In this document: positions 20,934-34,317 of the stretch, one piece after another
How the letters are laid out: each line of letters begins with the position of its first letter
How positions within the stretch are numbered: position 1 is the first letter of the stretch
Source: Escherichia phage vB_EcoM_G17
DNA length: 64,000 nt
Strand: one strand, 5' to 3'
Sequence record: MK327931.1
The notes under the pieces: model-generated
What the model saw: the letters and a program-made list of their open reading frames with translations, nothing else
Told to the model about the DNA's origin: nothing
Database searches by the model: none
Made by a program: the position numbers and the translations under genes

Positions 20934-21125
20934 TTACTTCCTATATATAATCATTAAGATATAGTAGTACTGATTATACTGTACATTCTCTTTAATATTA
21001 TAAGGGTCTATAGCAATCTCGGTACATCTATTAAATGCATATCTATTAAATGCCAGTGGAATTATAGATCTAATCCATACTTGTTCATTTTCTTTTAGTT
21101 TACTTATATAGAAGTTTTTATACAT
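20934..21125 (-). CDS. MHKEYY-family small protein (member 1)
   Basis: 63 aa; N-terminus MYKNFY, C-terminus LMIIYRK. Confidence 0.6.
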   Translation of the reverse strand: MYKNFYISKLKENEQVWIRSIIPLAFNRYAFNRCTEIAIDPYNIKENVQYNQYYYILMIIYRK

Positions 21126-21140
21126 AGTATTCTCTATTAA

Positions 21141-21323
21141 TTAATATGATAGTACTAGTGTTAGTACTGAGCACAATTGTTCTTTGTAGTTCTTAGGGTA
21201 TATAGAATCTTTTATGCACTCATTGAAGTGCCATAGGTATAATCTTGGGTCGCATTCTTTATATATTCTTACGGGGACGAATGTTAGTTTTCTTATATAG
21301 AATTCTTTATGTTCTTTATTCAT
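21141..21323 (-). CDS. MHKEYY-family small protein (member 2)
   Basis: 60 aa; MNKEHKEFY...FNECI. Confidence 0.6.
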   Translation of the reverse strand: MNKEHKEFYIRKLTFVPVRIYKECDPRLYLWHFNECIKDSIYPKNYKEQLCSVLTLVLSY

Positions 21324-21328
21324 ATTAG

Positions 21329-21514
21329 TTAGTGTCTGTATATAAGTAATAGTAAGAATACGTACTGCACATCTTCATCTTTAGTATTGAGTACTGTACG
21401 TATTGCGTCATGGAACAAGAATATAGTACTTGGGTCATGAAAATTTAAAGGGGTTCTGGGTACGGCATGTTTGTAGTTCCCTTTAACAAATTGTGTGTAG
21501 TATTCTCTATGCAT
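21329..21514 (-). CDS. MHKEYY-family small protein (member 3)
   Basis: 61 aa; MHREYY...LLLLIYRH. Confidence 0.6.
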   Translation of the reverse strand: MHREYYTQFVKGNYKHAVPRTPLNFHDPSTIFLFHDAIRTVLNTKDEDVQYVFLLLLIYRH

Positions 21515-21515
21515 A

Positions 21516-21701
21516 TTAGTACCTATATATTAGGGCGAGAATGTAGTACAATTCATATGGAATGTAATTTGGGGTGATCGCACACTGTGTATGGTAAATG
21601 AATTGTTCGGTATTTTTCTTATCCTTGATATCTATTGGGATTAGTGGTATAAGCATTTGGGAGTTTAGATCCAGATGGCTTAAGTAGAATTCTTTATGCA
21701 T
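21516..21701 (-). CDS. MHKEYY-family small protein (member 4)
   Basis: 61 aa; MHKEFY...ILALIYRY. Confidence 0.6.
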   Translation of the reverse strand: MHKEFYLSHLDLNSQMLIPLIPIDIKDKKNTEQFIYHTQCAITPNYIPYELYYILALIYRY

Positions 21702-21710
21702 ATTGTTCTC

Positions 21711-21899
21711 TTAGAATACGAAAGCTAGGTACAGGGTATGATACAGTACTCGATGGTAGCTGTCAAAATCTAGTATACATGCTTTAGTGCACATAGTAAA
21801 ATACACTTTATCATTTTGTGCATTGATACCGCGAGGTTTATCTAATAGATTAGTTCTGAGGTACATTGGGAAATATTTTGTGTAGTATTCTTTATGCAT
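21711..21899 (-). CDS. MHKEYY-family small protein (member 5)
   Basis: Track ORF 21711..21944 trimmed to internal MHKEYY start. Confidence 0.55.
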   Translation of the reverse strand: MHKEYYTKYFPMYLRTNLLDKPRGINAQNDKVYFTMCTKACILDFDSYHRVLYHTLYLAFVF

Positions 21900-21900
21900 G

Positions 21901-22083
21901 TTAGTACCTGAATATAAGTAGGATAGTGTTATATAGCTGGTCATAACTACTACTATTTTCTATACTTCGTTCTATGCAGTTATTGAATCCCAGTACTGCC
22001 AAATCGTTATCCAGAGGGACTTTATATCTGGCGTAGTGTACAAAAATGCTGGGGAGAAATTGTGTGTAGTATTCTTTGTGCAT
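21901..22083 (-). CDS. MHKEYY-family small protein (member 6)
   Basis: 60 aa; MHKEYYTQF...FNNCI...LLIFRY. Confidence 0.6.
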   Translation of the reverse strand: MHKEYYTQFLPSIFVHYARYKVPLDNDLAVLGFNNCIERSIENSSSYDQLYNTILLIFRY

Positions 22084-22084
22084 A

Positions 22085-22276
22085 TTAGTACCTATATATT
22101 AGTAAAAGGATGTGATACAGTACTCGATTATAGTCTTCAATATATATCGAGGATTTAGTGCACTGAATGAAGTAGTCTTTTTCGTAGTTTTTTTCTATAC
22201 CCAATGGTTCTGTTGGTACAAGGTGTTGGAGATACATTGGGAGTTTCTCTATGTAGTATTCTTTGTGGTTATTCAT
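22085..22276 (-). CDS. MHKEYY-family small protein (member 7)
   Basis: 63 aa; MNNHKEYY...LLLIYRY. Confidence 0.6.
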   Translation of the reverse strand: MNNHKEYYIEKLPMYLQHLVPTEPLGIEKNYEKDYFIQCTKSSIYIEDYNRVLYHILLLIYRY

Positions 22277-22277
22277 A

Positions 22278-22460
22278 TTAGTACCTGAATGTTAGCATTA
22301 CTACGTAGTACAGCATATATGGATTATCATCGTATATGAGCGTGTACTTAGTACATTGTTGGAACATTATCTTTGCGTGATCTTTTATTCCTATTGGTTC
22401 TGTTGGTATATGGTGCTGGAGATGCATAGGGATTTTATCCCTGTAGTATTCTTTGTGCAT
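22278..22460 (-). CDS. MHKEYY-family small protein (member 8)
   Basis: 60 aa; MHKEYYRDK...FQQCTK...MLTFRY. Confidence 0.6.
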   Translation of the reverse strand: MHKEYYRDKIPMHLQHHIPTEPIGIKDHAKIMFQQCTKYTLIYDDNPYMLYYVVMLTFRY

Positions 22461-22470
22461 GTTGTTCTCT

Positions 22471-22653
22471 TTAGTACTTATATATTAGGAGTAAAATGTT
22501 ATAGTACTGGTTCATTGCGTCATCATTTTCTATAGCACGTTTTACGCTATTCATGTAGTTAGATCGAGCGGCACGAGTTATGAGAAGAACTTTGTATGCA
22601 GCAAAGTATTTTTGCTGCACGGGTAGTTTAGAGATATAGTATTCTTTATACAT
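22471..22653 (-). CDS. MHKEYY-family small protein (member 9)
   Basis: Track ORF 22471..22716 trimmed to MYKEYYISKLP; start overlaps stop of the 223 aa gene (ATGTATAA). Confidence 0.55.
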   Translation of the reverse strand: MYKEYYISKLPVQQKYFAAYKVLLITRAARSNYMNSVKRAIENDDAMNQYYNILLLIYKY

Positions 22654-23317
22654 AGTTTGTAATATACGTAATGAGGTGATGCATTTTCTTATTAGTACTG
22701 ATAATTTCCTGTACATGTTTTGTCAGATTGTACGCGTTTTTATAGAGTACTGGATTATCGATTACAGTACTGTACATGAATAGTTCTTCTTCCTGTAGTT
22801 CTTTGTGTTCTAGTTCTTTGAGGAAATCTACAATTGATTTAGTTTCTTCTGAACGTTGTGCTTGCCAGAAGTGCATATTCTCGTGTACTTTTTCTGCATC
22901 AGTAGAGTATATGCCACCCATTTGGAATTGTGCTGTATTGACATCGTGGGAGGTGTTACAATTCCCGAAGAAGTATGTATTCCCGAAGTATAGCATTAAA
23001 GTGCACGGGGTATTATCCAACTGCATATTGATGATGAAGGATGCGTTCTTTAGTACCTTTGTGCTCGTATTAGTACTCAATACTTTTAAATCAGTATTAT
23101 AGATATTCATATAATGAACAGCTATATTATTTTTCTTCATGTACAATTCAAGGTTCTTTGATACGTTAACTCCATTTGTACTGGATTTTTCCTTTTTATT
23201 TCGTTTCTTTAGTACATTCGGGTGATACGTATATGCAGATGTAACTGATTCTGCCTGAATACTATTGAGGTACTTAAAGTGCTTAAGGTATTGTTTGCTG
23301 TGTGCATTAAGTTTCAT
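22646..23317 (-). CDS. hypothetical protein (223 aa) embedded in the small-protein operon
   Basis: Track lists it as +, but the stop (rc tta at 22646-22648) and ATG (rc cat at 23315-23317) are on the minus strand; AAGGAAA SD upstream. Confidence 0.6.
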   Translation of the reverse strand: MKLNAHSKQYLKHFKYLNSIQAESVTSAYTYHPNVLKKRNKKEKSSTNGVNVSKNLELYMKKNNIAVHYMNIYNTDLKVLSTNTSTKVLKNASFIINMQLDNTPCTLMLYFGNTYFFGNCNTSHDVNTAQFQMGGIYSTDAEKVHENMHFWQAQRSEETKSIVDFLKELEHKELQEEELFMYSTVIDNPVLYKNAYNLTKHVQEIISTNKKMHHLITYITNYV

Positions 23318-23327
23318 TTGGTTTCCT

Positions 23328-23507
23328 TTATATAGATGCCAGGGCGAGGATTTCCCTGTAGGGATTATCTTGTGTTAGTACAGCATAAATGCAGCTATTG
23401 AGATTAATATTTTTAGTACTTTTTGTTCCTAGTTTGTAGTACTTCACGAAGGTGTCGTACATGAAACGGTCTTTTATGGTTATACGTTCTCTATAGAATT
23501 GTTGCAT
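23328..23507 (-). CDS. MHKEYY-family small protein (member 10, 59 aa)
   Basis: Hand-translated (MQQFYRERITIKDRF...ILALASI), below track cutoff. Confidence 0.4.
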   Translation of the reverse strand: MQQFYRERITIKDRFMYDTFVKYYKLGTKSTKNINLNSCIYAVLTQDNPYREILALASI

Positions 23508-23515
23508 AGTATTCC

Positions 23516-23698
23516 TTAAATAGCGATTAGTTTCATTACTTCTCTGTATGTGTACTTTTCGTTTTGTGCATCTCTTGTGACGACATATAGGAAGGTGTGT
23601 TTATCTTTTTTGTTCCCGCAATTGTAGAAAATATTGAACTTATTGAAGTTGAATCTTTCGGCGTGTTGTAGTTTAGTTAAATAGAATTCTATGTTCAT
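23516..23698 (-). CDS. MHKEYY-family small protein (member 11)
   Basis: 60 aa; MNIEFYLTKL...MKLIAI. Confidence 0.55.
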   Translation of the reverse strand: MNIEFYLTKLQHAERFNFNKFNIFYNCGNKKDKHTFLYVVTRDAQNEKYTYREVMKLIAI

Positions 23699-23706
23699 TT
23701 TCTTCC

Positions 23707-23892
23707 TTACATTTCAATAAGTTTAAGTACTGCTCGGTACGTGTACTTAGTTGTTAGTGCTTCTTTAATAGAAATGCAGAAGTAATGTTGTTTGTCTCTT
23801 ATACTGCCGCGTTTGTAGTACCACACATGGGAGTTGTGACTGTACTTGTCTCTGTCGGATAGTTGTTGGTAGTAGTAGCTTATATGATTCAT
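23707..23892 (-). CDS. MHKEYY-family small protein (member 12)
   Basis: 61 aa; MNHISYYYQQL...LKLIEM. Confidence 0.55.
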   Translation of the reverse strand: MNHISYYYQQLSDRDKYSHNSHVWYYKRGSIRDKQHYFCISIKEALTTKYTYRAVLKLIEM

Positions 23893-24101
23893 TATAATGT
23901 AATTAGCCTTACTATATTAAAGTACTCGGTCCCTGGTGTACCTTGTAGTATATTACGCACGACATTTTTTTGGTGCTGGATGATTGCTGAAGGTGCGGTT
24001 CTTTTTAGTTTTTTTAAAGTACTGAATTCTTGTTTAAGTATGAACTGTACATCTTTAGGGAGAATATCTATGTAGTACTGATGAATGTTTGTAGTTTTCA
24101 T
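23892..24101 (-). CDS. MHKEYY-family small protein (member 13)
   Basis: 69 aa; MKTTNIHQYYIDILP...VRLITL. Confidence 0.55.
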   Translation of the reverse strand: MKTTNIHQYYIDILPKDVQFILKQEFSTLKKLKRTAPSAIIQHQKNVVRNILQGTPGTEYFNIVRLITL

Positions 24102-24111
24102 ATAGCACCTT

Positions 24112-24306
24112 TTAGAACTTAAAGATGAGGTTCAGGATAGAGCGGTACTTAGTTTCAGGGAACTGATGTTCTATTGCATAACGTGTCGCCATCCTGAAAT
24201 CGTAATTGTAATATAGATTATCCTTTCTCATAGGTGGTGCTAAAGAGAATGATAGCTGGTCTTGCTTGTGTAGTTTACTACCATAGAAATCTTTATGATT
24301 ATTCAT
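24112..24306 (-). CDS. MHKEYY-family small protein (member 14)
   Basis: 64 aa; MNNHKDFY...LNLIFKF; start overlaps upstream stop (ATGAATAA). Confidence 0.55.
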   Translation of the reverse strand: MNNHKDFYGSKLHKQDQLSFSLAPPMRKDNLYYNYDFRMATRYAIEHQFPETKYRSILNLIFKF

Positions 24307-24508
24307 AGAAGTAGATTAGTCCTATTAAACCTGAGTACATAATATTTTTGTTATTGCATTCGATTGCTTCTAGAGTACTACGTATACAATTATTAAAGCA
24401 ATCTCTACCGAAGTGAGTATTGGTACTTACAGGTGATACACTCCTTAGAAACAATTGTTCTTCGTTGCTAAGGTATTTGGTGTAGAATTCTTTATGTTCA
24501 GTATTCAT
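24299..24508 (-). CDS. MHKEYY-family small protein (member 15)
   Basis: 69 aa; MNTEHKEFY...FNNCIRS...LIGLIYFYE. Confidence 0.55.
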   Translation of the reverse strand: MNTEHKEFYTKYLSNEEQLFLRSVSPVSTNTHFGRDCFNNCIRSTLEAIECNNKNIMYSGLIGLIYFYE

Positions 24509-24509
24509 A

Positions 24510-24713
24510 TTAGTACTCGATTAAAAGGGCAAGGATATAATAGTATTGCATACTTTCTGCCCCTTGTAAAGCATTTCTTATGATATTACTCCTGTACGAG
24601 TTCAGGAGTTTAGGACAACGTTTGTAGTGTATAAAAGTATTTTGTGTATACAGTAGGCTTTCTCGTAGACCTTTTGTTGGTAGTGCATCGATGTAGTACT
24701 GTTCAATGTTCAT
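24510..24713 (-). CDS. MHKEYY-family small protein (member 16)
   Basis: 67 aa; MNIEQYYIDALP...LALLIEY. Confidence 0.55.
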   Translation of the reverse strand: MNIEQYYIDALPTKGLRESLLYTQNTFIHYKRCPKLLNSYRSNIIRNALQGAESMQYYYILALLIEY

Positions 24714-24937
24714 ATAGATAGCAGTACTAAGATTTTTGATAATTGTTTATTGCTATCCCCGCAGATGTTGCTGTGTAAAATACTCACAATGAGGGTATCA
24801 ATTGCATTGTTCATCATAAGGGTGCATCTTGGACTATTATAATTTTTTAGCTCAATTAGCCACGAACTATCCGAGAGAAATTCCCCGTACTCTAGTTCAT
24901 TTAGAGTATTGAGGTAGTACTTAAGAGTATTTGTCAT
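24710..24937 (-). CDS. MHKEYY-family small protein (member 17, first gene of operon)
   Basis: 75 aa; MTNTLKYYLNTL; AAGGAG SD; promoter TTGACA-N17-TACTAT upstream on minus strand. Confidence 0.55.
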   Translation of the reverse strand: MTNTLKYYLNTLNELEYGEFLSDSSWLIELKNYNSPRCTLMMNNAIDTLIVSILHSNICGDSNKQLSKILVLLSI

Positions 24938-25039
24938 GTGTAGTTCTCCTTATATTCCTTCTATAGTACACCAGTACTGAAAGGATGTCAAGGGTTTTCT
25001 TTATGGGGTAAATATGATATAATGAATAAGGAGGGATTT
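24938..25039. promoter_or_regulatory. divergent promoter region between the small-protein operon (minus) and the MLPF/RCC1-like array (plus)
   Basis: Minus: TTGACA-N17-TACTAT then AAGGAG; plus: TATAAT at about 25016 then AAGGAGGG and ATG at 25040. Confidence 0.55.
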
Positions 25040-26176
25040 ATGTTACCTTTTGTTAGAATGTTAAATTATGGGAACGTAGCACCAGAAAAACTAAAAGTTC
25101 GTGATATTGTTGCAGGTGCTAATTCATTATTACTAATAACCGAGGATAATGAATTATGGGTGCGTGGTAATAATTCGTATGGCAAATTAGGTATAGGAAC
25201 TGATACTATAGTGAATGTAACCGAGTGGACTAAAGTTAGAGATGATGTTAAGTTTGCTTGTGCTAGTAATTTAGTATGCGTTGTATTAACTGTAGATAAT
25301 AAAATTTTCTACTGTGGTGATGAATGGTTTGAATCTGGTGGTTCGACAAGTTCTAAAGTTGTTACATGGAAAGATGTTACGACACAATTTAGTGCAGTGA
25401 ATCTAAGCACAGTACGTGAAATGAAAATGACTTCTTATTGTGTAGGATTACTTACAAATGATAATAGATTATATGCTAAAGGATATGATAATAACCAATC
25501 ATTTGGTGGTTCAACAAGCAAAGTTAATGCTGTATTAGTTGCGTCAAATGTTTCAAAATTCTACACTTCTCTATCTGGTACTATATATTCTAGTACTACT
25601 GGTGGTTACTACCGCTGTGGTATAAGCAATACTGGAGCATTGGGTACTAGCACAAATTTAACTTCTTATAATTTGTACTCTGCTCCCGAATTTGCATCCG
25701 AATGTGCAGTTGGTATGTCAACATTAAACTCTGGTATATTATATTATGATACTAATGGTAGCACTAGATATGTTATAGCAGGTCAAAATAGATATTATCA
25801 ACTAGGTAATTCTTCTTCAAATACCACAAACGTATATTCGTATACAGAATTAACCGGATATAGAGGCAGGTTTAGGGATTTGTGGAGTGATATGAATAAC
25901 TCTGTTCTTTCTTTTGCTATAAGCACAGATGGCAATACTTTATATTATGCTGGTACTAACACTACACTATCTTCTGGTGACCCTGGTGTTGAATATTCAT
26001 CTACATTTAAAGAAGTACCACACGGGTTTAATGATATAACAAAGGCGGCATCGTTAGCCTATCTATCTATAGTGCAAGATTCAACGGGATGGTATTATTC
26101 TGGAAATGCAACTACGTTATATGGTTTGCCATCGAGTGATGAATTTATACCATTACCATTACCAACAATAATTTAA
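25040..26176 (+). CDS. MLPF-family RCC1-like repeat protein R1
   Basis: N-terminus MLPFVRMLNYGNVAP; repeated G-x-N-x-(Y/G)-(G/Q)-LG-x-G motifs (NNSYGKLGIGT, QNRYYQLGNSS); start trimmed from 25022 to the ATG with AAGGAGGG SD. Confidence 0.7.
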   Translation: MLPFVRMLNYGNVAPEKLKVRDIVAGANSLLLITEDNELWVRGNNSYGKLGIGTDTIVNVTEWTKVRDDVKFACASNLVCVVLTVDNKIFYCGDEWFESGGSTSSKVVTWKDVTTQFSAVNLSTVREMKMTSYCVGLLTNDNRLYAKGYDNNQSFGGSTSKVNAVLVASNVSKFYTSLSGTIYSSTTGGYYRCGISNTGALGTSTNLTSYNLYSAPEFASECAVGMSTLNSGILYYDTNGSTRYVIAGQNRYYQLGNSSSNTTNVYSYTELTGYRGRFRDLWSDMNNSVLSFAISTDGNTLYYAGTNTTLSSGDPGVEYSSTFKEVPHGFNDITKAASLAYLSIVQDSTGWYYSGNATTLYGLPSSDEFIPLPLPTII

Positions 26177-26182
26177 ATACAG

Positions 26183-26211
26183 GCCAGTACTTGATACTGG
26201 CTTTTCTTTTT
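26183..26211 (+). terminator. Rho-independent terminator after R1 (GCCAGTA-N5-TACTGGC plus T-run)
   Basis: Inverted repeat followed by ttttctttttt; next promoter -10 TATAAT at 26226-26231. Confidence 0.6.
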
Positions 26212-26247
26212 TGTATTAAATATAGTATAATGAATAAGGAGGGAAAT

Positions 26248-27450
26248 ATGTTACCTTTTGGAAGAATGGTTAAGTACGCAAATATTGCACCAGGTCCAGA
26301 ACCTGTAGAGTTCTCAGATGTTTTACAACAACATTATACAAACTGTATGTATCTCCATAACCCAACTAATACTTTATATGGTTATGGTAGTAATAACTTT
26401 TACCAATTTGGTCTTGGGAATTCAGCAGCAGTTTCGTCATTTACAGTACTTGCAAGGAACTGTGCAGCCTTTTGGCTTGGTGTTCAAGGTTCATTGATGA
26501 TTGATTTGGATAATAAAATATACTACACTGGGTCGGTTGGTGCATTTTCTGATTATGGAGATGCAACACCTGTTAATGGTTATTTGACAACATGGACTGA
26601 TGTTACTGTTGCATTTAATAAAATAGGTGTTATGGCTAATATGATCAAGAGTGTATATATAGGTGAAAGTACTAGAATATTATTAACCGATGGTAGAGTA
26701 ATTGCGTGTGGAAGAAATACTAATGGTGAATGTGGCTCTGGTAATAAAAATTCCATCCCTACACTCACAGTTATGACTAATATGGGTGAAGTTACACATA
26801 TGGCATGTTCATTACAAGGAACGCACTATATCAAATCAAATAAAGATGCATGGTTTTGTGGTAAGGATAACTTTGGTGAAAGTGGATGTGGTGGTAGTTT
26901 TGTTGTATATTTGAACAAATTCGTGATTAGTAATGTAGAACATATTAGTACTACATACGATGTTACTTGGTGGTTTACTACTGGTGGGCCTGTATATTAT
27001 AGCGGGGCTAACAGTTCTGGACAAGCTGGTAATGGTACGACTACATCGGTAAATCAGCTAACACCAATTAGGAACACATCGGTCACGGTTGATGTAAGTA
27101 AGTACAGTACTTTTATTTGTCCAAGTAATATGGGAAATGCATCAATTGGTGCACCTATGGCACAATACGCACCATATGTTAGAAGTAGTGGTGCTAACTC
27201 ATATGGTCAAGAAGGTAATGGAACTAATACATTAGTTAGAACTTGGAATATTTTTAATCTTAGTGCAATAAGTGGTGGTTATGACAATGTTCTTATGGCA
27301 TCTAAAGATTGGAGCAGAACCATAATAATTACTAAAGATTATAAATTATATGCATGTGGTGGCTGGAATGGTAGTGGTGGTAGATTACCTGATGGCACTT
27401 ATAGTATTACTACACTAACATTAATGCCAACGCAGTTATGGCAACAATAG
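26248..27450 (+). CDS. MLPF-family RCC1-like repeat protein R2
   Basis: MLPFGRMVKYANIAP; motifs SNNFYQFGLGN, RNTNGECGSGN, ANSYGQEGNGT; start trimmed from 26191. Confidence 0.7.
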   Translation: MLPFGRMVKYANIAPGPEPVEFSDVLQQHYTNCMYLHNPTNTLYGYGSNNFYQFGLGNSAAVSSFTVLARNCAAFWLGVQGSLMIDLDNKIYYTGSVGAFSDYGDATPVNGYLTTWTDVTVAFNKIGVMANMIKSVYIGESTRILLTDGRVIACGRNTNGECGSGNKNSIPTLTVMTNMGEVTHMACSLQGTHYIKSNKDAWFCGKDNFGESGCGGSFVVYLNKFVISNVEHISTTYDVTWWFTTGGPVYYSGANSSGQAGNGTTTSVNQLTPIRNTSVTVDVSKYSTFICPSNMGNASIGAPMAQYAPYVRSSGANSYGQEGNGTNTLVRTWNIFNLSAISGGYDNVLMASKDWSRTIIITKDYKLYACGGWNGSGGRLPDGTYSITTLTLMPTQLWQQ

Positions 27451-27458
27451 GAGGGAAT

Positions 27459-28568
27459 ATGTTACCTTTTGGAAGAATGATTAGGTATGGAAATATTGTC
27501 CCTGGTCCTAAAAAAATAATTAAAGTTGGTGCTTCTACCCAAGGCCAATTCTTATTGACTGATTCACATGATTTATATTACATAGGTAGAAATCAAGGTG
27601 GTGAATCTGGAAATGGTAATACCAACACGGTGTCTTCGTGGACATTAGTAAGTGCAGATGTTTCTAATTTTTTCGTGGGTGATCGTACACTTGTTATTAT
27701 TAAAAATGATAATACGATATGGACATCAGGTCAAACGTACTGGTTCTCATCTTCTACAACTACTTCTTACAGTACTGTATTAGTTGAAAGAACTAATTGG
27801 TTTACCAATGCTATACCAGTAAGTGAAATTGCTAATATTGTATGCACAAATGGTTTAATATTTGTACTTAGCACTAATTCAGTACTCTATGGTGCAGGAG
27901 ATAATGGATATCGTGGTTCTTTGGGTATTGGTTCATCATCAATTTACACATTAACTCAATGTGCTACGAACGTTCGTAAAGTAATGACCAATGCGAATGA
28001 TAGTATGTATCTTACATTAGATAATAAGCTATATAGTTCTGGATGGAATAGTAGTGGGCAGCATGGTACGGGGAACCAAACACAAATTAACACTTGGGGA
28101 TTGCGTAGTTCTGGTGTAATCGATGCAGCCATTGGTGGTAATGCATTAAATTACTATAATGGTACATCATATTTCGTATGTGGTCAAACTCCAAACTTTC
28201 TTAGTTCAGGTACGACTACATTCCGTGCAGTTCCTTTAAGTACTTTGCCTAATAGTTCTCCATTGTTTATGACGAATTCACCTGCCTTAAATACTGCTAC
28301 ACAAATGGTAATTACTAGTACATATCAGAAGGGTGTTGGGGCGAACCGTGGTTTGGGATTAAACAATTCTCAAACTGGTGCTATATATAGTGCTACCAAT
28401 TTACAATTACCCGTTGAAGTTAGTGAGATTAGGGATGTTCTTTTTAGTGATGGTTTGACATCGATATTAACCAAAAATGGAGACGTGTATAGTACTGGAT
28501 CGTATTACGCCATTCCAGGTGCAATCGAGGATGTTGCAGTCTTTACTAAAATTGATTTACCAAAATAA
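27459..28568 (+). CDS. MLPF-family RCC1-like repeat protein R3
   Basis: MLPFGRMIRYGNIVP; motifs RNQGGESGNGN, DNGYRGSLGIG, WNSSGQHGTGN; no terminator between R2 and R3 (co-transcribed). Confidence 0.7.
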   Translation: MLPFGRMIRYGNIVPGPKKIIKVGASTQGQFLLTDSHDLYYIGRNQGGESGNGNTNTVSSWTLVSADVSNFFVGDRTLVIIKNDNTIWTSGQTYWFSSSTTTSYSTVLVERTNWFTNAIPVSEIANIVCTNGLIFVLSTNSVLYGAGDNGYRGSLGIGSSSIYTLTQCATNVRKVMTNANDSMYLTLDNKLYSSGWNSSGQHGTGNQTQINTWGLRSSGVIDAAIGGNALNYYNGTSYFVCGQTPNFLSSGTTTFRAVPLSTLPNSSPLFMTNSPALNTATQMVITSTYQKGVGANRGLGLNNSQTGAIYSATNLQLPVEVSEIRDVLFSDGLTSILTKNGDVYSTGSYYAIPGAIEDVAVFTKIDLPK

Positions 28569-28574
28569 CATAAT

Positions 28575-28604
28575 GCCAGTACTCTGTACTGGCTTTCTTA
28601 TTTG
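28575..28604 (+). terminator. Rho-independent terminator after R3
   Basis: GCCAGTAC-tct-GTACTGGC then T-rich tract. Confidence 0.6.
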
Positions 28605-28638
28605 TATTAAATATAGTATAATGAATAAAGGAGGGAAT

Positions 28639-29808
28639 ATGTTACCTTTTGGAAGAATGATTAAGTACGGAAATATTGCACCTGCTAAACCAAATATTAA
28701 AAAAATACTTGCTAACAACTATAATGTTGCTGTTTTAACAAACAGTGGTGATTTATATGTGCGTGGTGAGAATGCAAATGGTCTTTTGGGTTTAGGTCAC
28801 AAAAATACTGTTACTACATGGACTTATAGTACTTCTGGTGTTCAAGATTTTTGGATGGGAGCCACGACGATAGTTCTTAAGAAAAGCAATGATGAAATAT
28901 GGTACAGTGGAAGTTCAACAACTGTTGGTATGAAAGGGGCAGCAGTATCAATATGGACTTCTGCTATGCCAACATTCGATACATTAACATTACCAATATT
29001 AGATATAGCAGTTAGTTATCAGACTACAAGTGTGTTACTGTCAGACCAAACAATATGGAGTACTGGAGTGGGGTCAGATGGTCAGTTGGGTGATGGGACA
29101 ACAACTAACAATATTGCTGGTAAATTCGTCAAAAGTACTGTTCCGGCCGCAGCAAATCAATTACCTGTTAAATTGTTTGCAAGTAATTTAATGCACGGTT
29201 ATGTTACAAACCAAGGATGGCTATTTTATACAGGAAGAGTAAATGCAGTTACAAGTTCAGGAAGTAAGTTATATACTATATATTATGGTGCTCCTACCAG
29301 CTTAAGAAATACAATTAATATCAAGTACTACACGGAGAATGGTACTTCAATGGCAATGGCAATTGGTACTGATCCAAATGGAAAAACCATCATCGCAAAT
29401 GGCGGTTCGAGAATATTTGGTGCACAAGCAGATGGGACAAATGGTTCTCTCAATGATTATAGAGCATTTGAGGTTCAAACTGCTTCACTAATGCCACCCG
29501 GTGATGTAGTAAGCATTGCTAACAATACTTCATATTATAACCAAGTTATTGCTACAACAGATGGTATATATTGTTGCGGCTACAATCAATCTTCAGAAGC
29601 TGGTATGTTAGGTATTGGTACATCTACCAATGCATTGGTATATACCAAAGCAATCGTGCCTGATGGGTTTGATTATAGTAAGTCGCAGATGGCAGGTGGG
29701 TATAACCGAACTTATATAACTGATGGTAATTTTGTATATAGCACAGGGACAAATGTCACATATGGTGGCGTTAGTAGCTTAGAATTTGTATTAGATTCAC
29801 CAGTTTAA
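28639..29808 (+). CDS. MLPF-family RCC1-like repeat protein R4
   Basis: MLPFGRMIKYGNIAP; motifs ENANGLLGLGH, VGSDGQLGDGT, YNQSSEAGMLGIGT; start trimmed from 28477. Confidence 0.7.
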   Translation: MLPFGRMIKYGNIAPAKPNIKKILANNYNVAVLTNSGDLYVRGENANGLLGLGHKNTVTTWTYSTSGVQDFWMGATTIVLKKSNDEIWYSGSSTTVGMKGAAVSIWTSAMPTFDTLTLPILDIAVSYQTTSVLLSDQTIWSTGVGSDGQLGDGTTTNNIAGKFVKSTVPAAANQLPVKLFASNLMHGYVTNQGWLFYTGRVNAVTSSGSKLYTIYYGAPTSLRNTINIKYYTENGTSMAMAIGTDPNGKTIIANGGSRIFGAQADGTNGSLNDYRAFEVQTASLMPPGDVVSIANNTSYYNQVIATTDGIYCCGYNQSSEAGMLGIGTSTNALVYTKAIVPDGFDYSKSQMAGGYNRTYITDGNFVYSTGTNVTYGGVSSLEFVLDSPV

Positions 29809-29814
29809 ATATAT

Positions 29815-29845
29815 GCCAGTACTCTGTACTGGCATTCTTATTTGT
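29815..29845 (+). terminator. Rho-independent terminator after R4
   Basis: GCCAGTAC-tct-GTACTGGC then attcttatttg. Confidence 0.55.
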
Positions 29846-29879
29846 ATTAAATATAGTATAATGAATAAAGGAGGGAAAT

Positions 29880-31028
29880 ATGTTACCTTTTGCAAGAATG
29901 ATGAATTATGGGAATATTGCCCCTGGTAAGGATAGGCGTTTTAAAATATATTCAAGTGATTCTATGTATCTTCATGATACTTATACTAATAAGTTGTATG
30001 CATCTTCTGCGACGAATTGGGGTACTGGAACAGGTGTAGCATCGAGTAAATTTATTCTTTGTGCAGAGAATGTTAAACGAGTTCTATTGGAAGATAACAG
30101 TAGTAGTTGTCAATTGTATGAAGAGAAAGGTACTGGAAAAGTTTTTATCACTGGTAACACGAAGGCATTCACTGGTGTAACTGATACAAAAACTTTGTGG
30201 ACGGACTGTACTACGTGGATAACATCAGGTGGTATTAATGTTTCTGATATAAAATACATGAGTAGTTTTAATGATATGAAGGTGAATTTGATAACAAACG
30301 ATGGTACGTTGTATTGTTGTGGAGTTAACAATAACTCGAACCTATCATCATTTGGTGATGGTACAAACATTAATTCTTTTAACACATTCAAAAGGGTAGA
30401 TACTATAACTTCGGTTAAAAAGGCAGTTGGTAACATATACCTAAAAGAAGATAATACTTTATGGGGTTGTGGTTTTAACTATTACTATCAGTTAGGTACA
30501 GGTAATCAAACTTCTATTACTGGGGTGACGATGATTGCTTCGGATGTTATAGATTTTGATGTAAGTTATCAAAGTACATTTTTTATTAAATCGGATAATA
30601 ATTTGTACGCTTGTGGTAAACAGTTCGGTGCACAATACGGGAACGAATTTGGCACAGGTGGTACTTCTTCATCTACCGATATACAATACAAAACTCCGAC
30701 ATTATTGAGTTCAGGAGTTTATACTCTATATACTTGTGTTAGTAACATGGCATCACATATAGCTAAAGGTGATGAAGTTCTATACGCATCTGGGTCGAAT
30801 GGATTTGGTCAATTAGGTGTTGGTAATAATATTAATCAGTACTCATATACTCCTTCGTATACTTCGTTTAATAGTTCGTGTAATTTGGTACGCACTCCAT
30901 CTGGTTCACTTATACTTACGGACACTGAGCAATTATATTATTGTGGGTATGCTATGGTAGTAATGGGGGGAATTGCTGGACAAAACATTCTTAGTTATAC
31001 AGAAGTTGATATGTCATTTATACAATGA
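29880..31028 (+). CDS. MLPF-family RCC1-like repeat protein R5
   Basis: MLPFARMMNYGNIAP; motifs FNYYYQLGTGN, SNGFGQLGVGN. Confidence 0.7.
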   Translation: MLPFARMMNYGNIAPGKDRRFKIYSSDSMYLHDTYTNKLYASSATNWGTGTGVASSKFILCAENVKRVLLEDNSSSCQLYEEKGTGKVFITGNTKAFTGVTDTKTLWTDCTTWITSGGINVSDIKYMSSFNDMKVNLITNDGTLYCCGVNNNSNLSSFGDGTNINSFNTFKRVDTITSVKKAVGNIYLKEDNTLWGCGFNYYYQLGTGNQTSITGVTMIASDVIDFDVSYQSTFFIKSDNNLYACGKQFGAQYGNEFGTGGTSSSTDIQYKTPTLLSSGVYTLYTCVSNMASHIAKGDEVLYASGSNGFGQLGVGNNINQYSYTPSYTSFNSSCNLVRTPSGSLILTDTEQLYYCGYAMVVMGGIAGQNILSYTEVDMSFIQ

Positions 31029-31034
31029 TTTAAT

Positions 31035-31063
31035 GCCAGTACACTGTACTGGCTTTCTTATTT
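31035..31063 (+). terminator. Rho-independent terminator after R5
   Basis: GCCAGTAC-act-GTACTGGC then T-rich tract. Confidence 0.6.
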
Positions 31064-31099
31064 GTATTAAATATAGTATAATGAATAAAGGAGGAATTT

Positions 31100-32242
31100 A
31101 TGTTACCTTTTGCAAGAATGATGAATTATGGGAATATTGCACCAGAACCAAAACCTCTATTTAAAAATAGATTACAAGCAAATTATAATACTCGTTTTTA
31201 TTTGCATGTTAATGGTGACTTGTACTGGTATGGTTCATCTTCATTTGGACAAGGTGGTAATGGTTCATTACAATCATCCACCGTATGGACCCGTGTGAAT
31301 AATAATATTGAACGTTACTGGGGTGGTGTTCTTGGTTCCATTGCCATTAAGAATGATGGAACTATTTGGTTCACAGGTGCTAGTATAGTAATGCCACAAA
31401 TCGGAACAAATACAAATGGGGTTTGGATTGATGTAACCCAGTACTTCACTGATTTTGGTGTCAGTGCTGATGATATTGATGGTATTGCTGTTGGGCAGAA
31501 TTTGCGTGTATTTTTAAAAAATGGAAAATGGTTCTACTGTGGTACTGGCGAAGCTGGTGTATTTGGTAACGCGTCAACAGCTAATGTCACATCGTTCAGA
31601 TACAGCACTATAGAAAATGTTAAAAGTTATGGCTGTTCTTTGCTCAGTACTGGGTTAGTACTTGATGATGGCTCCTATTGGTATGCAGGAAATACTGTTG
31701 CTCCTGGTAGTACAAAAACATCAAATATATTAAGTTTTACAAAAGACAATACGATCACCAATGCTATACAAGCTGTAAATACATACCGTACTTCATATAT
31801 ATTTCTTAATGATGGTTCAGTGAAGGTTGCTTCACCAAATGCATATGGTCAAGCTGGTGTAGGTACAGTATCAGCAGTACCAATGAGTACATTAATTCCC
31901 AATTTATCATTCCAAGGTGAAATAGAGTTGGTGGGTGGTTTATCCAACAACGAAGGGAATGGATGTGTTGTTAAAAATAATAATAAGTTATATACTTGTG
32001 GTCGAAATACCTATGGTCTATGTGGTGTTAATCAAACATCCGAAAATATACTAACTTTCACCGAAATGGTTCTTGATGCATTAGAAGGAAGACGAATTTC
32101 AGGCTTCGTAAATGATAATTTCTATTCAATGATAATTGATGAAAATAACAATTTGTATATGTGTGGTTTGGCTGAACTTGGAAATGTTCCAGTCAATAGA
32201 GTTCCAACAAGGGTTCCTGATTCACTTCTACCGTGGAAATAA
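31100..32242 (+). CDS. MLPF-family RCC1-like repeat protein R6
   Basis: MLPFARMMNYGNIAP; motifs SSSFGQGGNGS, PNAYGQAGVGT, RNTYGLCGVN. Confidence 0.7.
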   Translation: MLPFARMMNYGNIAPEPKPLFKNRLQANYNTRFYLHVNGDLYWYGSSSFGQGGNGSLQSSTVWTRVNNNIERYWGGVLGSIAIKNDGTIWFTGASIVMPQIGTNTNGVWIDVTQYFTDFGVSADDIDGIAVGQNLRVFLKNGKWFYCGTGEAGVFGNASTANVTSFRYSTIENVKSYGCSLLSTGLVLDDGSYWYAGNTVAPGSTKTSNILSFTKDNTITNAIQAVNTYRTSYIFLNDGSVKVASPNAYGQAGVGTVSAVPMSTLIPNLSFQGEIELVGGLSNNEGNGCVVKNNNKLYTCGRNTYGLCGVNQTSENILTFTEMVLDALEGRRISGFVNDNFYSMIIDENNNLYMCGLAELGNVPVNRVPTRVPDSLLPWK

Positions 32243-32248
32243 TATAAT

Positions 32249-32278
32249 GCCAGTATCAAGTACTGGCATTTCTTTTTG
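32249..32278 (+). terminator. Rho-independent terminator after R6
   Basis: GCCAGTA-tcaag-TACTGGC then T-rich tract. Confidence 0.6.
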
Positions 32279-32312
32279 ATTAAATATAGTATAACAAATA
32301 AAGGAGGGAATT

Positions 32313-33500
32313 ATGTTACCTTTTGCAAGAATGATGAATTATGGGAATATTGCCCCAGTACCACTTCAAATTAAGAAAATAATCCCAACTGATTTAGATG
32401 TTGTGGTTCTGTATACGGATGGTCAACTATATGCACGTGGGAATAATAGTTTTGGGAAATTCGGTAGAGGAAACAACACTGCATTAAAATCATGGACATT
32501 AATTAGAGAAAACGTTAACGATTGCTGGCTTACACAAGGAACTTTATTAGTAAAAGACAATGACTCAAATTATTATTACTGTGGATATGGTAGTCATATT
32601 GGTTTATCAACTAGTACTACTACGTTTTTAAGTTATAACCAATATATTCAAAATTTGTACACACAAAGTTCAAGTACTTCAATTAAACAGATGTATGGAG
32701 GTACTACGTGGTTTACTTTCTTAATGGACAATAATACAATATGGAGTACAGGGTGGAACAGTGCTAGACAATTCGCCGATGGAACGGGAACTACTTATGA
32801 AATAACCGATGGTTCATTTGTAAAAGCGGTCACACCTAATGTTGATATTGCACAAATACAGTCAACAAATAACTGTGTATTGTTGTTTGATAAACAAAAT
32901 AATTTATATATTGGTGGTGTTACATCCGGTATAAGTTCCGCGACTACATGGACTTCATATAATCAATATACTTTATATCAACCAAATACAACATACACAA
33001 AAACGTTACAATACACAGGATGCTCAACTGGTGCAGTAAGTGCTTTAGTTGAAAATCCAAATACAGGAGCACGTCAGTTCCTTGTCGGTGGGTTAGCTAA
33101 TAATGGGGCATGGGGAAATAACACTACATCTAGCTCTGTTAATGGAGTTTTAGGAAATAACAGTACGACGTTACCACCCGGTACTTTGTATTCAATTCAT
33201 ACTGGATACCCACCACAATCTAGTATACTAATTACGAGTACTGGTGTATATGCAACTGGTTTAAATGCCAGTAGTTATGCTGGTTCATTGGGTATTGGTA
33301 CTAGTGCAACTGTTGGTAAGTTTACTGCATGTCCAATGCCTACACAAATAACATATTCTATGTATGATAAAATAAAAATATATAGAGGTTCATATCGTAC
33401 ATTTCTAACTGATATGAAAAATATATATTCAACCGGAACTTATGATGATGGTGGTCCTAGTACAACTAGATATGTACTAGATACACCCCGACAATTATAA
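32313..33500 (+). CDS. MLPF-family RCC1-like repeat protein R7
   Basis: MLPFARMMNYGNIAP; motifs NNSFGKFGRGN, NASSYAGSLGIGT. Confidence 0.7.
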   Translation: MLPFARMMNYGNIAPVPLQIKKIIPTDLDVVVLYTDGQLYARGNNSFGKFGRGNNTALKSWTLIRENVNDCWLTQGTLLVKDNDSNYYYCGYGSHIGLSTSTTTFLSYNQYIQNLYTQSSSTSIKQMYGGTTWFTFLMDNNTIWSTGWNSARQFADGTGTTYEITDGSFVKAVTPNVDIAQIQSTNNCVLLFDKQNNLYIGGVTSGISSATTWTSYNQYTLYQPNTTYTKTLQYTGCSTGAVSALVENPNTGARQFLVGGLANNGAWGNNTTSSSVNGVLGNNSTTLPPGTLYSIHTGYPPQSSILITSTGVYATGLNASSYAGSLGIGTSATVGKFTACPMPTQITYSMYDKIKIYRGSYRTFLTDMKNIYSTGTYDDGGPSTTRYVLDTPRQL

Positions 33501-33507
33501 TATAATA

Positions 33508-33537
33508 GCCAGTACTCAGTACTGGCTTTTCTTTTTG
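33508..33537 (+). terminator. Rho-independent terminator after R7
   Basis: GCCAGTAC-tca-GTACTGGC then ttttctttttg. Confidence 0.6.
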
Positions 33538-33572
33538 TATTAAATATATTATAATGAATAAAGGAGGGAATT

Positions 33573-34310
33573 ATGTTACCTTTTGGAAGAATGATTAAGT
33601 ACGGGAATGAAATTGAATATAAGCCACATGGTGAACAATTAATCACGACAATAGGAACAACACAATTTACAGTTCCTGCTGGCGTTACCGAAATATCAGT
33701 ATGTGTTATTTCGCCGGGTGGTCAACGTGGTGCTGGCGGCGGCTTATCGTGGCGTAATAATATTCCGGTTACTAGTGGTGAGTACTTAAGTGTTTCTCTT
33801 ACGCATACCAACACTACTACACCAGTTGAAAACGGTTTATATCGTGGAACTGAAAAACTATGTGTTAGCTTCACTGGTGCATATACGGTTGGTGGACTAG
33901 GTGGAAAAGCTGCTAACGCTATTAATGATGGTGGTGGTAATGGTGGCAATACTGGTGTAAGTGGTGGTGCAGTCATTGGTGGTGGTGCTGGTGGCTACAC
34001 AGGTAAAGGTGGTAACGGAGATGCAATCACTGGTGAAAATGGTGCTGGCGGCGGCGGGGGCGGTGGTACATTCTATAATACCTCGTTCATTGGTACGGGT
34101 GGTGGTACTGGTATCATTGTTCAAGGTGCTAATGGTATTGGTGGTAGCTACGGTGGTTCATATAATGGTGGTGCTGGTAGTGGTGGTGCTGGTAAGATGT
34201 ATGGTGGTGGTGGTAGTATATGGGATAATTCTTCTTATACGGCTGCTGGTGGTGGTGCTGTGCGAATAATATGGGGAAATGGGAGATATTATCCTAACAA
34301 TTCAGTATAA
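33573..34310 (+). CDS. MLPF-family glycine-rich protein R8 (245 aa)
   Basis: Same promoter/RBS cassette and N-terminus MLPFGRMIKYGN, but body is Gly-rich (GGAGGYTGKGGNGDAITGENGAGGGGGGG...). Confidence 0.65.
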   Translation: MLPFGRMIKYGNEIEYKPHGEQLITTIGTTQFTVPAGVTEISVCVISPGGQRGAGGGLSWRNNIPVTSGEYLSVSLTHTNTTTPVENGLYRGTEKLCVSFTGAYTVGGLGGKAANAINDGGGNGGNTGVSGGAVIGGGAGGYTGKGGNGDAITGENGAGGGGGGGTFYNTSFIGTGGGTGIIVQGANGIGGSYGGSYNGGAGSGGAGKMYGGGGSIWDNSSYTAAGGGAVRIIWGNGRYYPNNSV

Positions 34311-34317
34311 AATATAG

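What the first reader, a model, noticed from the sequence alone, without database searches (positions are those of the whole stretch)
24938..25039. Two paralog arrays are divergently transcribed from one 100 bp control region
The 17-gene small-protein operon (minus) and the 13-cassette array (plus) start back-to-back. The minus promoter is sigma70-like (TTGACA-N17-TACTAT plus AAGGAG), while the plus promoter has TATAAT but no good -35. This hints at differential or sequential regulation of two diversified families from a shared switch region and suggests they may form one functional locus.
Basis: partly seen in the sequence, partly recalled or inferred. Interest (0 to 1): 0.65.

Follow-up and report, generated by a model that had tools for sequence, protein, structure and literature searches.

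The report
Back-to-back early and late phage promoters
This 102-bp gap in the jumbo coliphage Sharanji holds an ordinary host-type early promoter facing one way and a T4-style late promoter facing the other, so it is a boundary between two timing classes of genes rather than a shared switch for two gene arrays.

Summary
The window is Escherichia phage Sharanji (Asteriusvirus, 350 kb). The sequence facts are correct. Seventeen small paralogs plus one 223-aa gene (minus strand) and 13 cassettes sharing an MLPF N-terminus (plus strand) start back to back across 24938-25039. TTGACA-N17-TACTAT plus a ribosome-binding site face left; TATAAT with no -35 faces right.

- The minus promoter is one of dozens of sigma70-like early promoters in this genome.
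- The conserved plus-side element is TAAATA (25009-25014), not TATAAT. The same core precedes capsid, sheath and baseplate genes and sits at all 10 plus-strand gene islands of the genome.
- Sharanji encodes an unannotated T4 gp55-type late sigma factor.
- In the relative phAPEC6, the RCC1-like proteins were found in virions by mass spectrometry.
- The plus array is not one operon. Seven internal junctions repeat a terminator hairpin, TAAATA, a ribosome-binding site and a conserved 15-residue N-terminus. This region therefore drives mainly the first RCC1 gene.
- Relatives differ in cassette content, with homology breaking inside that conserved module, much like the PeSL cassettes of T4-like phages.
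- I found no shared operator and no evidence of a functional link between the arrays.

Early-versus-late timing is inferred, not measured. Interest is low to moderate.

The parts
24938..25039 (.). 102-bp divergent intergenic region (the finding)
   Evidence: It is 86-99% identical in 7 relatives.
24986..24991 (-). -35 hexamer TTGACA of the early-type promoter for the small-gene operon
   Evidence: Invariant in 9 phages.
24972..24979 (.). CAGTACTG palindrome inside the 17-nt spacer of the minus promoter
   Evidence: Invariant in 9 phages. It is a genome-wide over-represented motif.
24963..24968 (-). -10 hexamer TACTAT of the minus promoter. The inferred start site is near 24956.
   Evidence: It reads TACAAT in ph0011 and UE-S1. 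The same TACTAT -10 occurs in promoters at 5165, 5441 and 43077.
24946..24951 (-). Ribosome-binding site AAGGAG for gene 24710..24937
20934..24937 (-). Operon-like block: 17 small paralogs (phrog_11711) plus one 223-aa gene (22646-23317, phrog_29152)
   Evidence: Gaps between genes are -8 to 15 nt. Only 4 of the 18 genes are annotated in OR545507.
25009..25014 (+). TAAATA, the core of a T4-type late promoter for the first RCC1-like gene. The inferred start site is near 25020.
25015..25023 (+). TGATATAAT. It could be an extended -10 for sigma70, or the A/T-rich downstream part of the late promoter.
   Evidence: Not conserved: A4 has TAGTATAAT and ph0011 has TGAGATGAT. Internal cassettes have TAGTATAAT.
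25028..25034 (+). Ribosome-binding site AAGGAGG for the first RCC1-like gene
25040..26176 (+). First RCC1-like cassette (gp106), with the conserved N-terminus MLPFVRMLNYGNVAP
   Evidence: Pfam RCC1/RCC1_2 and phrog_4219. The gene at the same position in phAPEC6 (gp549) was found in virions by mass spectrometry, but its body matches Sharanji's fifth cassette.
26181..26203 (+). Intrinsic terminator hairpin after the first cassette. This is the likely limit of transcription from the finding's plus promoter.
   Evidence: Folding energy -11.6 kcal/mol, followed by a U-tract.
26181..26247 (+). Composite module 1: terminator, TAAATATAGTATAAT, ribosome-binding site
28575..28638 (+). Composite module 2
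29813..29879 (+). Composite module 3
31035..31099 (+). Composite module 4
32246..32312 (+). Composite module 5. Here TATAAT is TATAAC while TAAATA is intact.
33507..33572 (+). Composite module 6
34316..34380 (+). Composite module 7
25040..39283 (+). Whole plus-strand island of 13 MLPF-headed cassettes. The last terminator is at 39083-39105.
21738..21766 (-). Possible internal sigma70-like promoter (TTGACA-N17-TATCAT) inside the small-gene block. Doubtful.
   Evidence: The -35 is not conserved in A4, TH47 or CMSTMSU.

Best explanation
The 102-bp gap is the left edge of a plus-strand island of late, virion-associated genes that sits inside a long minus-strand early region of the jumbo phage Sharanji.

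Leftward side. A host sigma70-type promoter (TTGACA-N17-TACTAT) has an A-tract just upstream of the -35. Early in infection it drives a tightly packed operon of 17 fast-evolving small paralogs plus one 223-aa gene.

Rightward side. A T4-type late promoter with core TAAATA at 25009-25014 is read by host RNA polymerase carrying the phage's gp55-family sigma factor (Sharanji gp368). It drives the first RCC1-like beta-propeller gene. Transcription is largely stopped by the hairpin at 26181-26203.

The rest of the plus array. Downstream cassettes are expressed from their own copies of the same module: a terminator hairpin, TAAATA-N3-TATAAT, a ribosome-binding site and a conserved 15-residue N-terminus. 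This repeated module also acts as a homologous-recombination site through which cassettes are gained, lost and swapped between related phages.

What is shown and what is inferred:
- Shown: sequence elements, their conservation, their genome-wide partition, presence of the sigma factor, terminator hairpins, and recombination breakpoints.
- Inferred: promoter activity, early versus late timing, terminator efficiency, and the role of the N-terminal peptide as a virion-docking tag.
For: Identity: the window is Sharanji OR545507, record positions 15778-79777.

Minus promoter:
- 10/12 match to the sigma70 consensus.
- Conserved in 9 genomes.
- Member of a large family of sigma70-like sites upstream of minus-strand early genes. 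These precede 15/83, 19/90 and 25/104 predicted gene starts in the three minus-strand early gene sets, against 0/46 in the 150-200 kb replication and structural region.

Plus promoter:
- TAAATA is invariant at the 24 cassette starts (of 30, in five phages) that have their own upstream spacer, while TATAAT varies at critical positions.
- (T)ATAAATA or TAAATA lies 17-55 nt before the start codon of the major capsid, scaffold-position (gp357), protease, baseplate, sheath and other genes.
- [AT]TAAATA occurs upstream of 14/46 genes in the 150-200 kb region and 8/12 RCC1 cassettes. In the early gene sets it occurs at 0/83, 4/90 and 4/104. Random 70-nt windows have it 1-2% of the time.
- All 10 minus/plus divergent junctions of the genome have TAAATA on the plus side. 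One of them, gp300/301, shares the GGGTAAATA context.

Sigma factor: gp368 matches phrog_12791 (E 2e-154) and phrog_234 (E 8e-18). T4 gp55 itself matches phrog_234 at 3e-69.

Late character of the products: eight RCC1-like proteins of phAPEC6 were detected in virions, including gp549 directly after this gap (PMC7247149 Table 1).

Literature: ATAAATA was proposed as the late promoter of Rak2-like phages, alongside RpoD-like early promoters (PMC5259590).

Separate transcription units: eight hairpins of -11.6 to -14.4 kcal/mol with U-tracts, and the module is repeated.

Recombination:
- Homology to relatives ends 35-45 nt into the first RCC1 coding sequence.
- The first cassette of phAPEC6 is Sharanji's fifth, at 92% amino-acid identity.
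- Between paralogs, the first 45 nt of coding sequence are 82-84% identical and the next 45 nt are 35% identical.
Against: - No transcript data exist for any Asteriusvirus in the searched library, so activity and timing are unproven.
- The core here is GGGTAAATA and the internal cassettes read ATTAAATA, that is 6 of 8 against T4's TATAAATA.
- In Sharanji the first copy also forms a perfect extended -10, TGATATAAT. This could let sigma70 holoenzyme fire early.
- The CBB paper found no gp33 or gp45 homologs in Rak2-like phages. The late mechanism may therefore differ from T4's.
- Mass-spectrometry detection of RCC1-like proteins was at low coverage (1-5 peptides).
- The terminators are modest hairpins, so read-through between cassettes is possible.
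Confidence: 0.7

Rival explanations
1. The plus-side promoter of the first cassette is a sigma70 extended -10 promoter (TGATATAAT, 25015-25023) that works without a -35. The first RCC1-like gene would then be made early or constitutively by unmodified host polymerase, perhaps in addition to late expression.
For: TGnTATAAT is a perfect extended -10 in Sharanji and in 6 of the 8 aligned relatives. The first copy differs from the internal copies (TAGTATAAT) at exactly the two bases that create the TG.
Against: - A4 has TAGTATAAT and ph0011 has TGAGATGAT at this position, yet both keep TAAATA.
- A sigma70 start 7 nt after TATAAT would fall at about 25030, on the first G of the ribosome-binding site, giving a leader of only about 10 nt (inference).
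- Every other plus-strand island uses TAAATA.
- The products are virion proteins in phAPEC6.
Confidence: 0.2
2. The gap is a true shared switch. A phage-encoded dimeric protein would bind the CAGTACTG palindrome (24972-24979), shut off the early promoter, and thereby or additionally license the late promoter. This would couple the two arrays.
For: - The palindrome is invariant in 9 phages.
- It lies in the spacer of the minus promoter.
- (C)AGTACTG lies next to the -10 in about 19 other early-type promoters.
- It is strongly selected genome-wide: 147 sites in coding sequence against 15 after synonymous-codon shuffling.
- It has symmetric T-rich and A-rich flanks.
Against: - 80% of the 199 sites lie inside genes all over the genome, which is not an operator-like distribution.
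- The same half-site forms the arms of the array's terminator hairpins.
- The motif is 30 bp from TAAATA and does not overlap the plus promoter.
- No DNA-binding domain was found in the flanking genes.
- Other late promoters lack it.
Confidence: 0.1
3. The matches are fortuitous and both arrays are read from distant promoters, so the gap has no promoter function.
For: Sigma70-like matches at this stringency are as frequent in shuffled sequence: 97 found against 101.9. No experimental data exist.
Against: - No co-directional gene lies upstream on either strand. Upstream of the minus operon lie 14 kb of opposite-strand RCC1 genes with hairpins. Upstream of the plus array lie 4 kb of opposite-strand small genes.
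- The gap is conserved as well as, or better than, the neighbouring coding sequence in 6 of 7 relatives.
- Both elements belong to motif classes that partition cleanly by genome region.
Confidence: 0.05

Closest known systems
T4-type late promoters (TATAAATA at -10, no -35, read by the gp55 sigma factor)
   Same: An A/T-rich -10-only element with the TAAATA core. It is found before capsid, sheath and baseplate genes of the same genome. A gp55-family sigma factor is encoded.
   Different: The core is 6 of 8 at the RCC1 cassettes (GGGTAAATA at the first copy, ATTAAATA at internal ones). A second TATAA(T/A) box often follows 3-4 nt later. gp33 and gp45 partners were reported as not detected in Rak2-like phages (PMC5259590). 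Activity is untested.
Predicted promoter classes of Rak2-like jumbo phages CBB and GAP32 (RpoD-like early, TGAAACG -35 middle, ATAAATA late; PMC5259590)
   Same: The same three classes are visible in Sharanji: TTGACA early, TGAGACA...TATAAT before replication genes, and ATAAATA late.
   Different: That work did not describe this junction, the RCC1-array modules, or the AGTACTG element of many early promoters.
PeSL composite terminator/promoter cassettes of T4-like phages (PMC2839356, PMC4122927)
   Same: A short conserved stem-loop plus promoter unit is repeated between genes of a variable region. It coincides with breakpoints of gene gain, loss and swap between close relatives.
   Different: The promoter here is of the late type, not the early type. 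The conserved unit also extends through the ribosome-binding site into the first 15 codons, so all cassettes share an N-terminal peptide.
RCC1-like 'DNA condensation' protein array of phAPEC6, 121Q and PBECO4 (PMC7247149)
   Same: The same gene family and locus, with eleven copies in phAPEC6, eight of them in virions.
   Different: That paper proposed a role in the capsid inner body from the RCC1 name alone. Here the model places the conserved N-terminal 17 residues outside the propeller. A non-RCC1 glycine-rich protein shares that peptide. This points to a common docking or targeting tag, not DNA binding.

Membership tests
Sigma70-dependent (early) promoter | -35 TTGACA-like and -10 TAnnnT hexamers separated by 17 +/- 1 nt | tested here: met
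   TTGACA-N17-TACTAT, a 10/12 match.
Sigma70-dependent (early) promoter | Placed a short leader's distance upstream of a gene with a ribosome-binding site, and conserved in relatives | tested here: met
   The inferred start site near 24956 is 19 nt before the start codon. The elements are retained in 9 genomes.
Sigma70-dependent (early) promoter | Transcription by sigma70 holoenzyme early in infection | not testable with these tools
   No transcriptome of any Asteriusvirus was found.
T4-type late promoter | TATAAATA-like element at -10 with no -35 | tested here: inconclusive
   The TAAATA core is present and invariant, but the match to the T4 octamer is only 6/8. The same reduced core occurs before gp359, gp378, gp405 and gp411.
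T4-type late promoter | The same motif precedes bona fide structural genes of the same genome and is rare before early genes | tested here: met
   14/46 genes in the 150-200 kb region and 8/12 cassettes, against 0/83, 4/90 and 4/104 in the early gene sets. Present at all 10 plus-strand islands.
T4-type late promoter | The phage encodes a gp55-family sigma factor | tested here: met
   gp368: phrog_234 E 8e-18 and phrog_12791 E 2e-154.
T4-type late promoter | gp33 co-activator and gp45 sliding-clamp dependence | not tested
   The CBB paper reports that no homologs were detected in Rak2-like phages. This was not searched here.
Extended -10 sigma70 promoter | TGnTATAAT, retained where function is retained | tested here: not met
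   Present in Sharanji. Lost in A4 and ph0011 and absent from all internal cassettes.
PeSL composite terminator/promoter cassette | Conserved stem-loop plus promoter unit repeated between genes | tested here: met
   Seven internal copies and eight hairpins.
PeSL composite terminator/promoter cassette | The promoter is an early (sigma70) promoter | tested here: not met
   No TTGACW -35 at any of the 12 cassettes. A late-type TAAATA is present instead.
PeSL composite terminator/promoter cassette | Marks indel and swap breakpoints between close relatives | tested here: met
   Homology ends 35-45 nt into the coding sequence. Cassette order differs in phAPEC6, TH47 and ph0011.
Divergent promoter pair with shared operators (genetic switch) | Operator sites shared by or overlapping both promoters, and an adjacent regulator gene | tested here: not met
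   The only inverted repeats are the two ribosome-binding sites and the CAGTACTG in the minus spacer. No DNA-binding domain was found in the flanking genes.
RCC1-like beta-propeller proteins | RCC1 repeat signatures and a propeller fold | tested here: met
   Pfam RCC1, RCC1_2 and WD40_RLD. The AlphaFold model is all-beta with pTM 0.73.

The most novel reading that the evidence does not exclude
The invariant CAGTACTG palindrome in the early promoter's spacer could be one site of a genome-wide recognition system. There are 199 sites, roughly ten times more than codon-preserving shuffles give. The extended consensus tttCAGTACTGaaa is symmetric. The motif lies next to the -10 of many early promoters and forms the arms of the RCC1-array terminators. 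If a phage protein binds it to silence early promoters or to organise the 350-kb genome, this gap would be a real early-to-late control point, and the motif would be a new global regulatory or architectural signal of jumbo phages.
Probability: 0.12. Interest if true: 0.65.

Novelty: new member of a known kind. Interest (0 to 1): 0.27.

Why it matters
- It gives a concrete, testable transcription map for a poorly annotated jumbo phage. The map covers an early small-protein operon, autonomous late RCC1 cassettes and a late sigma factor.
- It corrects the annotation. Fourteen of the 18 genes at 20934-24937 are missing from the record, and gp368 is the late sigma factor.
- The RCC1-like virion proteins emerge as a recombination-shuffled repertoire sharing a promoter and an N-terminal tag. 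This is relevant to host-range or virion-decoration variation in phages considered for therapy.
- As a regulatory device, the gap itself is ordinary.

Tried and rejected
- Rfam scan of the whole window: no hits.
- Search for repeats or operators in the gap: only the two ribosome-binding sites pair with each other.
- Small-protein function: no Pfam hit. Homologs occur only in Asteriusvirus-like contigs. The AlphaFold model is a 4-helix bundle-like fold at pLDDT 76 with no PDB match.
- phmmer with T4 gp55 against all Sharanji ORFs gave only E=0.04. The PHROG profiles then settled the question.
- The internal promoter at 21766 looked strong (11/12, with AGTACTG). Its -35 is not conserved in A4, TH47 or CMSTMSU, and the AGTACTG there is coding sequence (R-V-L). 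I treat it as doubtful.
- A 'one functional locus' reading based on co-occurrence was rejected as uninformative. All genomes that carry both arrays are close relatives with conserved gene order.
- No Asteriusvirus transcriptome and no mention of CAGTACTG in phage papers was found.
- The Sharanji paper does not discuss promoters or RCC1.

Full report
**Identity and setting**

The window matches Escherichia phage Sharanji OR545507.1 at 100% identity over the stretches compared. Sharanji is an Asteriusvirus, a Rak2-like jumbo phage of 350 kb. Window position equals record position minus 15777.

Almost all genes of this genome are on the minus strand. The RCC1-like array (record 40817-55060) is one of only ten plus-strand islands.

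**Observation**

The finding's coordinates are the 102-bp gap between two genes:
- the minus-strand gene 24710..24937 (gp105);
- the plus-strand gene starting at 25040 (gp106).

All the quoted elements are present:
- Minus strand: TTGACA (24991-24986), a 17-nt spacer, TACTAT (24968-24963) and AAGGAG (24951-24946).
- Plus strand: TATAAT (25018-25023) with only TTTTCT at the -35 position, then AAGGAGG and the start codon.

To the left lie 17 paralogs of 59-75 aa. They share the pattern MHKEYY...LLLIYRY and belong to phrog_11711, with no Pfam hit. One unrelated 223-aa gene (phrog_29152) lies among them. Gaps between the genes run from -8 to 15 nt, so this is an operon-like block. Only four of these 18 genes are annotated in the record.

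To the right lie 13 ORFs beginning MLPF(G/A)RMxKYGNI:
- eleven RCC1-like propellers;
- one glycine-rich protein (gp113);
- one short remnant.

**The minus promoter**

A 10/12 sigma70 match is not by itself above chance. The scan found 97 such sites in 20 kb, against 101.9 in shuffles.

Other evidence supports it:
- The -35, the spacer palindrome and a TAnnnT -10 are retained in nine Asteriusvirus genomes. ph0011 and UE-S1 read TACAAT at the -10.
- The gap is at least as conserved as the adjacent coding sequence in six of seven relatives.
- It belongs to a family of about 60 strong sigma70-like sites in the window. Three of these share the same TACTAT -10.
- Such sites precede 15/83, 19/90 and 25/104 predicted minus-strand gene starts in the early regions. 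None of 46 in the 150-200 kb replication and structural region has one.

This fits the RpoD-like early class predicted for the related phage CBB (PMC5259590).

**The plus promoter**

The reason appears to be that the functional element is TAAATA (25009-25014), a T4-type late promoter core.

The evidence is as follows:
1. I compared 30 cassette starts in five phages. TAAATA is invariant at the 24 that have their own upstream spacer. The TATAAT box changes to TATAAC, TATAAA, TATGAT, GATGAT or TAACGA.
2. At the orthologous first copy, A4 and ph0011 lose the TGnTATAAT form but keep TAAATA.
3. (T)ATAAATA or TAAATA lies 17-55 nt before the start codon of many late genes. These include the major capsid, scaffold-position (gp357), protease, baseplate and sheath genes. 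It is often followed 3-4 nt later by TATAA(T/A), exactly as in the cassettes.
4. [AT]TAAATA occurs before 14/46 genes of the 150-200 kb region and before 8/12 cassettes. In the early gene sets it occurs at 0/83, 4/90 and 4/104. It occurs in 1-2% of random 70-nt windows.
5. All ten minus/plus divergent junctions of the genome carry TAAATA on the plus side. One of them shares the GGGTAAATA context.
6. Sharanji gp368 is annotated as hypothetical and lies next to the SbcD homolog. It belongs to the T4 gp55 late-sigma family: phrog_12791 at 2e-154 and phrog_234 at 8e-18. T4 gp55 itself matches phrog_234 at 3e-69.
7. In phAPEC6, eight RCC1-like proteins were detected in purified virions. They include gp549, the gene directly after this gap (PMC7247149 Table 1).

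The timing itself is inferred. No Asteriusvirus transcriptome was found.

**The plus array is not one transcription unit**

Seven internal junctions repeat the same module:
- a hairpin GCCAGTAC-nnn-GTACTGGC with a U-tract;
- TAAATATAGTATAATGAATAAAGGAGG;
- the start codon.

An eighth hairpin closes the array. Folding energies are -11.6 to -14.4 kcal/mol.

The promoter in the finding therefore mainly serves gp106, up to the hairpin at 26181-26203. Four cassettes (27459, 35565, 36718, 37908) follow their neighbour without a hairpin.

**A recombination module**

Between paralogs, the first 45 nt of coding sequence are 82-84% identical and the next 45 nt only 35%. The proteins are 24% identical overall, but 76% identical in the first 15 residues.

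Between phages, homology runs through gp105 and the gap and then stops 35-45 nt into the first RCC1 gene. The first cassette of phAPEC6 corresponds to Sharanji's fifth, at 92% amino-acid identity. TH47 and ph0011 have yet other orders.

This behaviour parallels the PeSL terminator/promoter cassettes that mediate modular shuffling in T4-like phages (PMC2839356, PMC4122927). There are two differences. The promoter is of the late type, and the conserved unit reaches into the coding sequence.

In the AlphaFold model of a cassette protein the propeller is confident (pTM 0.73). The highly conserved residues 1-17 have pLDDT below 50 and lie outside the fold. The non-RCC1 protein gp113 carries the same peptide. 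I therefore infer a shared docking or targeting tag. This inference is untested.

**Is it a shared switch or one functional locus?**

I found no evidence for either:
- The estimated start sites (near 24956 and near 25020) are about 64 bp apart and the promoter cores do not overlap.
- The late core lies in the UP-element zone of the early promoter. This would matter only if both promoters were active at the same time.
- The only inverted repeats are the two ribosome-binding sites and the CAGTACTG palindrome in the minus spacer.
- The same early-left, late-right layout recurs at gp193/gp194 and gp488/gp489, next to unrelated genes. gp194 is a lone plus-strand gene with ATAAATAcgtTATAAT, and I take it to be the counterpart of the phAPEC6 virion protein gp077 without aligning the two.
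- The small proteins evolve fast. Only 27-37% of changed codons are synonymous. They have no recognisable fold relatives.

Nothing links the small proteins to the RCC1 proteins except adjacency.

**The residual unusual feature**

CAGTACTG is the most over-represented 8-mer of the genome:
- There are 199 sites.
- Inside coding sequence there are 147, against 15.1 +/- 3.8 after synonymous-codon shuffling.
- AGTACT has 718 sites in coding sequence, against 208 +/- 12.

It lies next to the -10 in many early promoters. It also forms the arms of the array's terminators. Its presence in the finding's spacer keeps open a small chance that a protein binding this motif controls early promoters.

**Verdict**

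Sequential regulation is supported. A shared switch, a single-promoter array and a functional coupling are not.
- It is a new example of known kinds: a sigma70 early promoter, a gp55-type late promoter and PeSL-like cassettes.
- Interest is low to moderate.

Noticed in passing
Whole window (for example 3287, 3781, 11233, 20282, 24972, 48357, 63285) and the whole Sharanji genome: CAGTACTG, which contains the ScaI site AGTACT, is hugely over-represented. There are 199 sites in 350 kb against about 3.5 expected. Inside coding sequence there are 147 sites against 15.1 +/- 3.8 after synonymous-codon shuffling, and AGTACT has 718 against 208. The flanks are symmetric (tttCAGTACTGaaa). The motif lies next to the -10 in many early promoters and forms the arms of terminator hairpins. 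I found no literature on it.
   Followed up: partly
window 20934-24937: Fourteen of the 18 genes of the small-protein operon are not annotated in OR545507. Only gp102-gp105 are. The same genes are annotated in phages A4 and ph0011.
   Followed up: yes
window 21125-22653 (gene junctions): Many small genes end ...Y-R-Y-stop, encoded as AGGTACTAAT, directly before the next ATG. The conserved C-terminal codons therefore double as the weak ribosome-binding site and stop/start coupling for the next gene.
   Followed up: partly
window 1428, 4175, 7449, 10732, 15236, 17465, 17533, 19359, 19575: A family of nine short elements. Each has a strong sigma70-like promoter followed about 45 nt later by CCCAC(N)GGGTGCA. 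They occur on both strands, and some form convergent overlapping pairs (17465+ with 17533-). They may be small RNAs or antisense pairs. No Rfam match.
   Followed up: partly
window 19560-20930: An ORF-poor stretch of 1.4 kb downstream of the small-gene operon. It contains a perfect TTGACA-N16-TATAAT (20303-20276, minus strand), several CAGTACTG sites and hairpins.
   Followed up: no
window 33573-34310: gp113 has the same promoter module and the same MLPFGRMIKYGN N-terminus as the RCC1 cassettes. Its body is an unrelated glycine-rich domain (phrog_4474, no Pfam hit). This shows that the N-terminal module is exchangeable.
   Followed up: partly
window 36718-37897 and 39149-39283: gp116 is a truncated RCC1 copy of 269 aa, followed by short ORF fragments. 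This is probably a disrupted cassette. The last MLPF ORF (39149) is a short remnant with a degenerate promoter, TAAATAtaaTAACGA.
   Followed up: no
Outside the window: Sharanji record 196052-196891 (gp368): This 'hypothetical protein', next to the SbcD homolog, is a T4 gp55-family late sigma factor: phrog_12791 at 2e-154 and phrog_234 at 8e-18.
   Followed up: yes
Whole Sharanji genome: The E. coli Chi octamer is enriched and strand-biased. There are 10 GCTGGTGG and 19 CCACCAGC sites. In 150 kb it is about 22 times over base-composition expectation.
   Followed up: no
window 3308, 3802, 6652, 8233, 10229, 11233, 11462, 15592 (minus strand): Repeated early-promoter-plus-stem-loop units between small early genes, resembling the PeSLs of T4-like phages. 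The unit is TTGACA...AGTACTGTATAAT-agtttacatcaa-GGGGAGAA-nnnn-TTCTCCCC.
   Followed up: no
window 20000-40000: The small-gene operon has GC skew opposite to its coding strand. The plus strand reads +0.19 although the genes are on the minus strand. This is unlike the other minus-strand early genes (-0.09) and probably reflects the Tyr, His, Asn and Lys-rich, Gly-poor composition.
   Followed up: no
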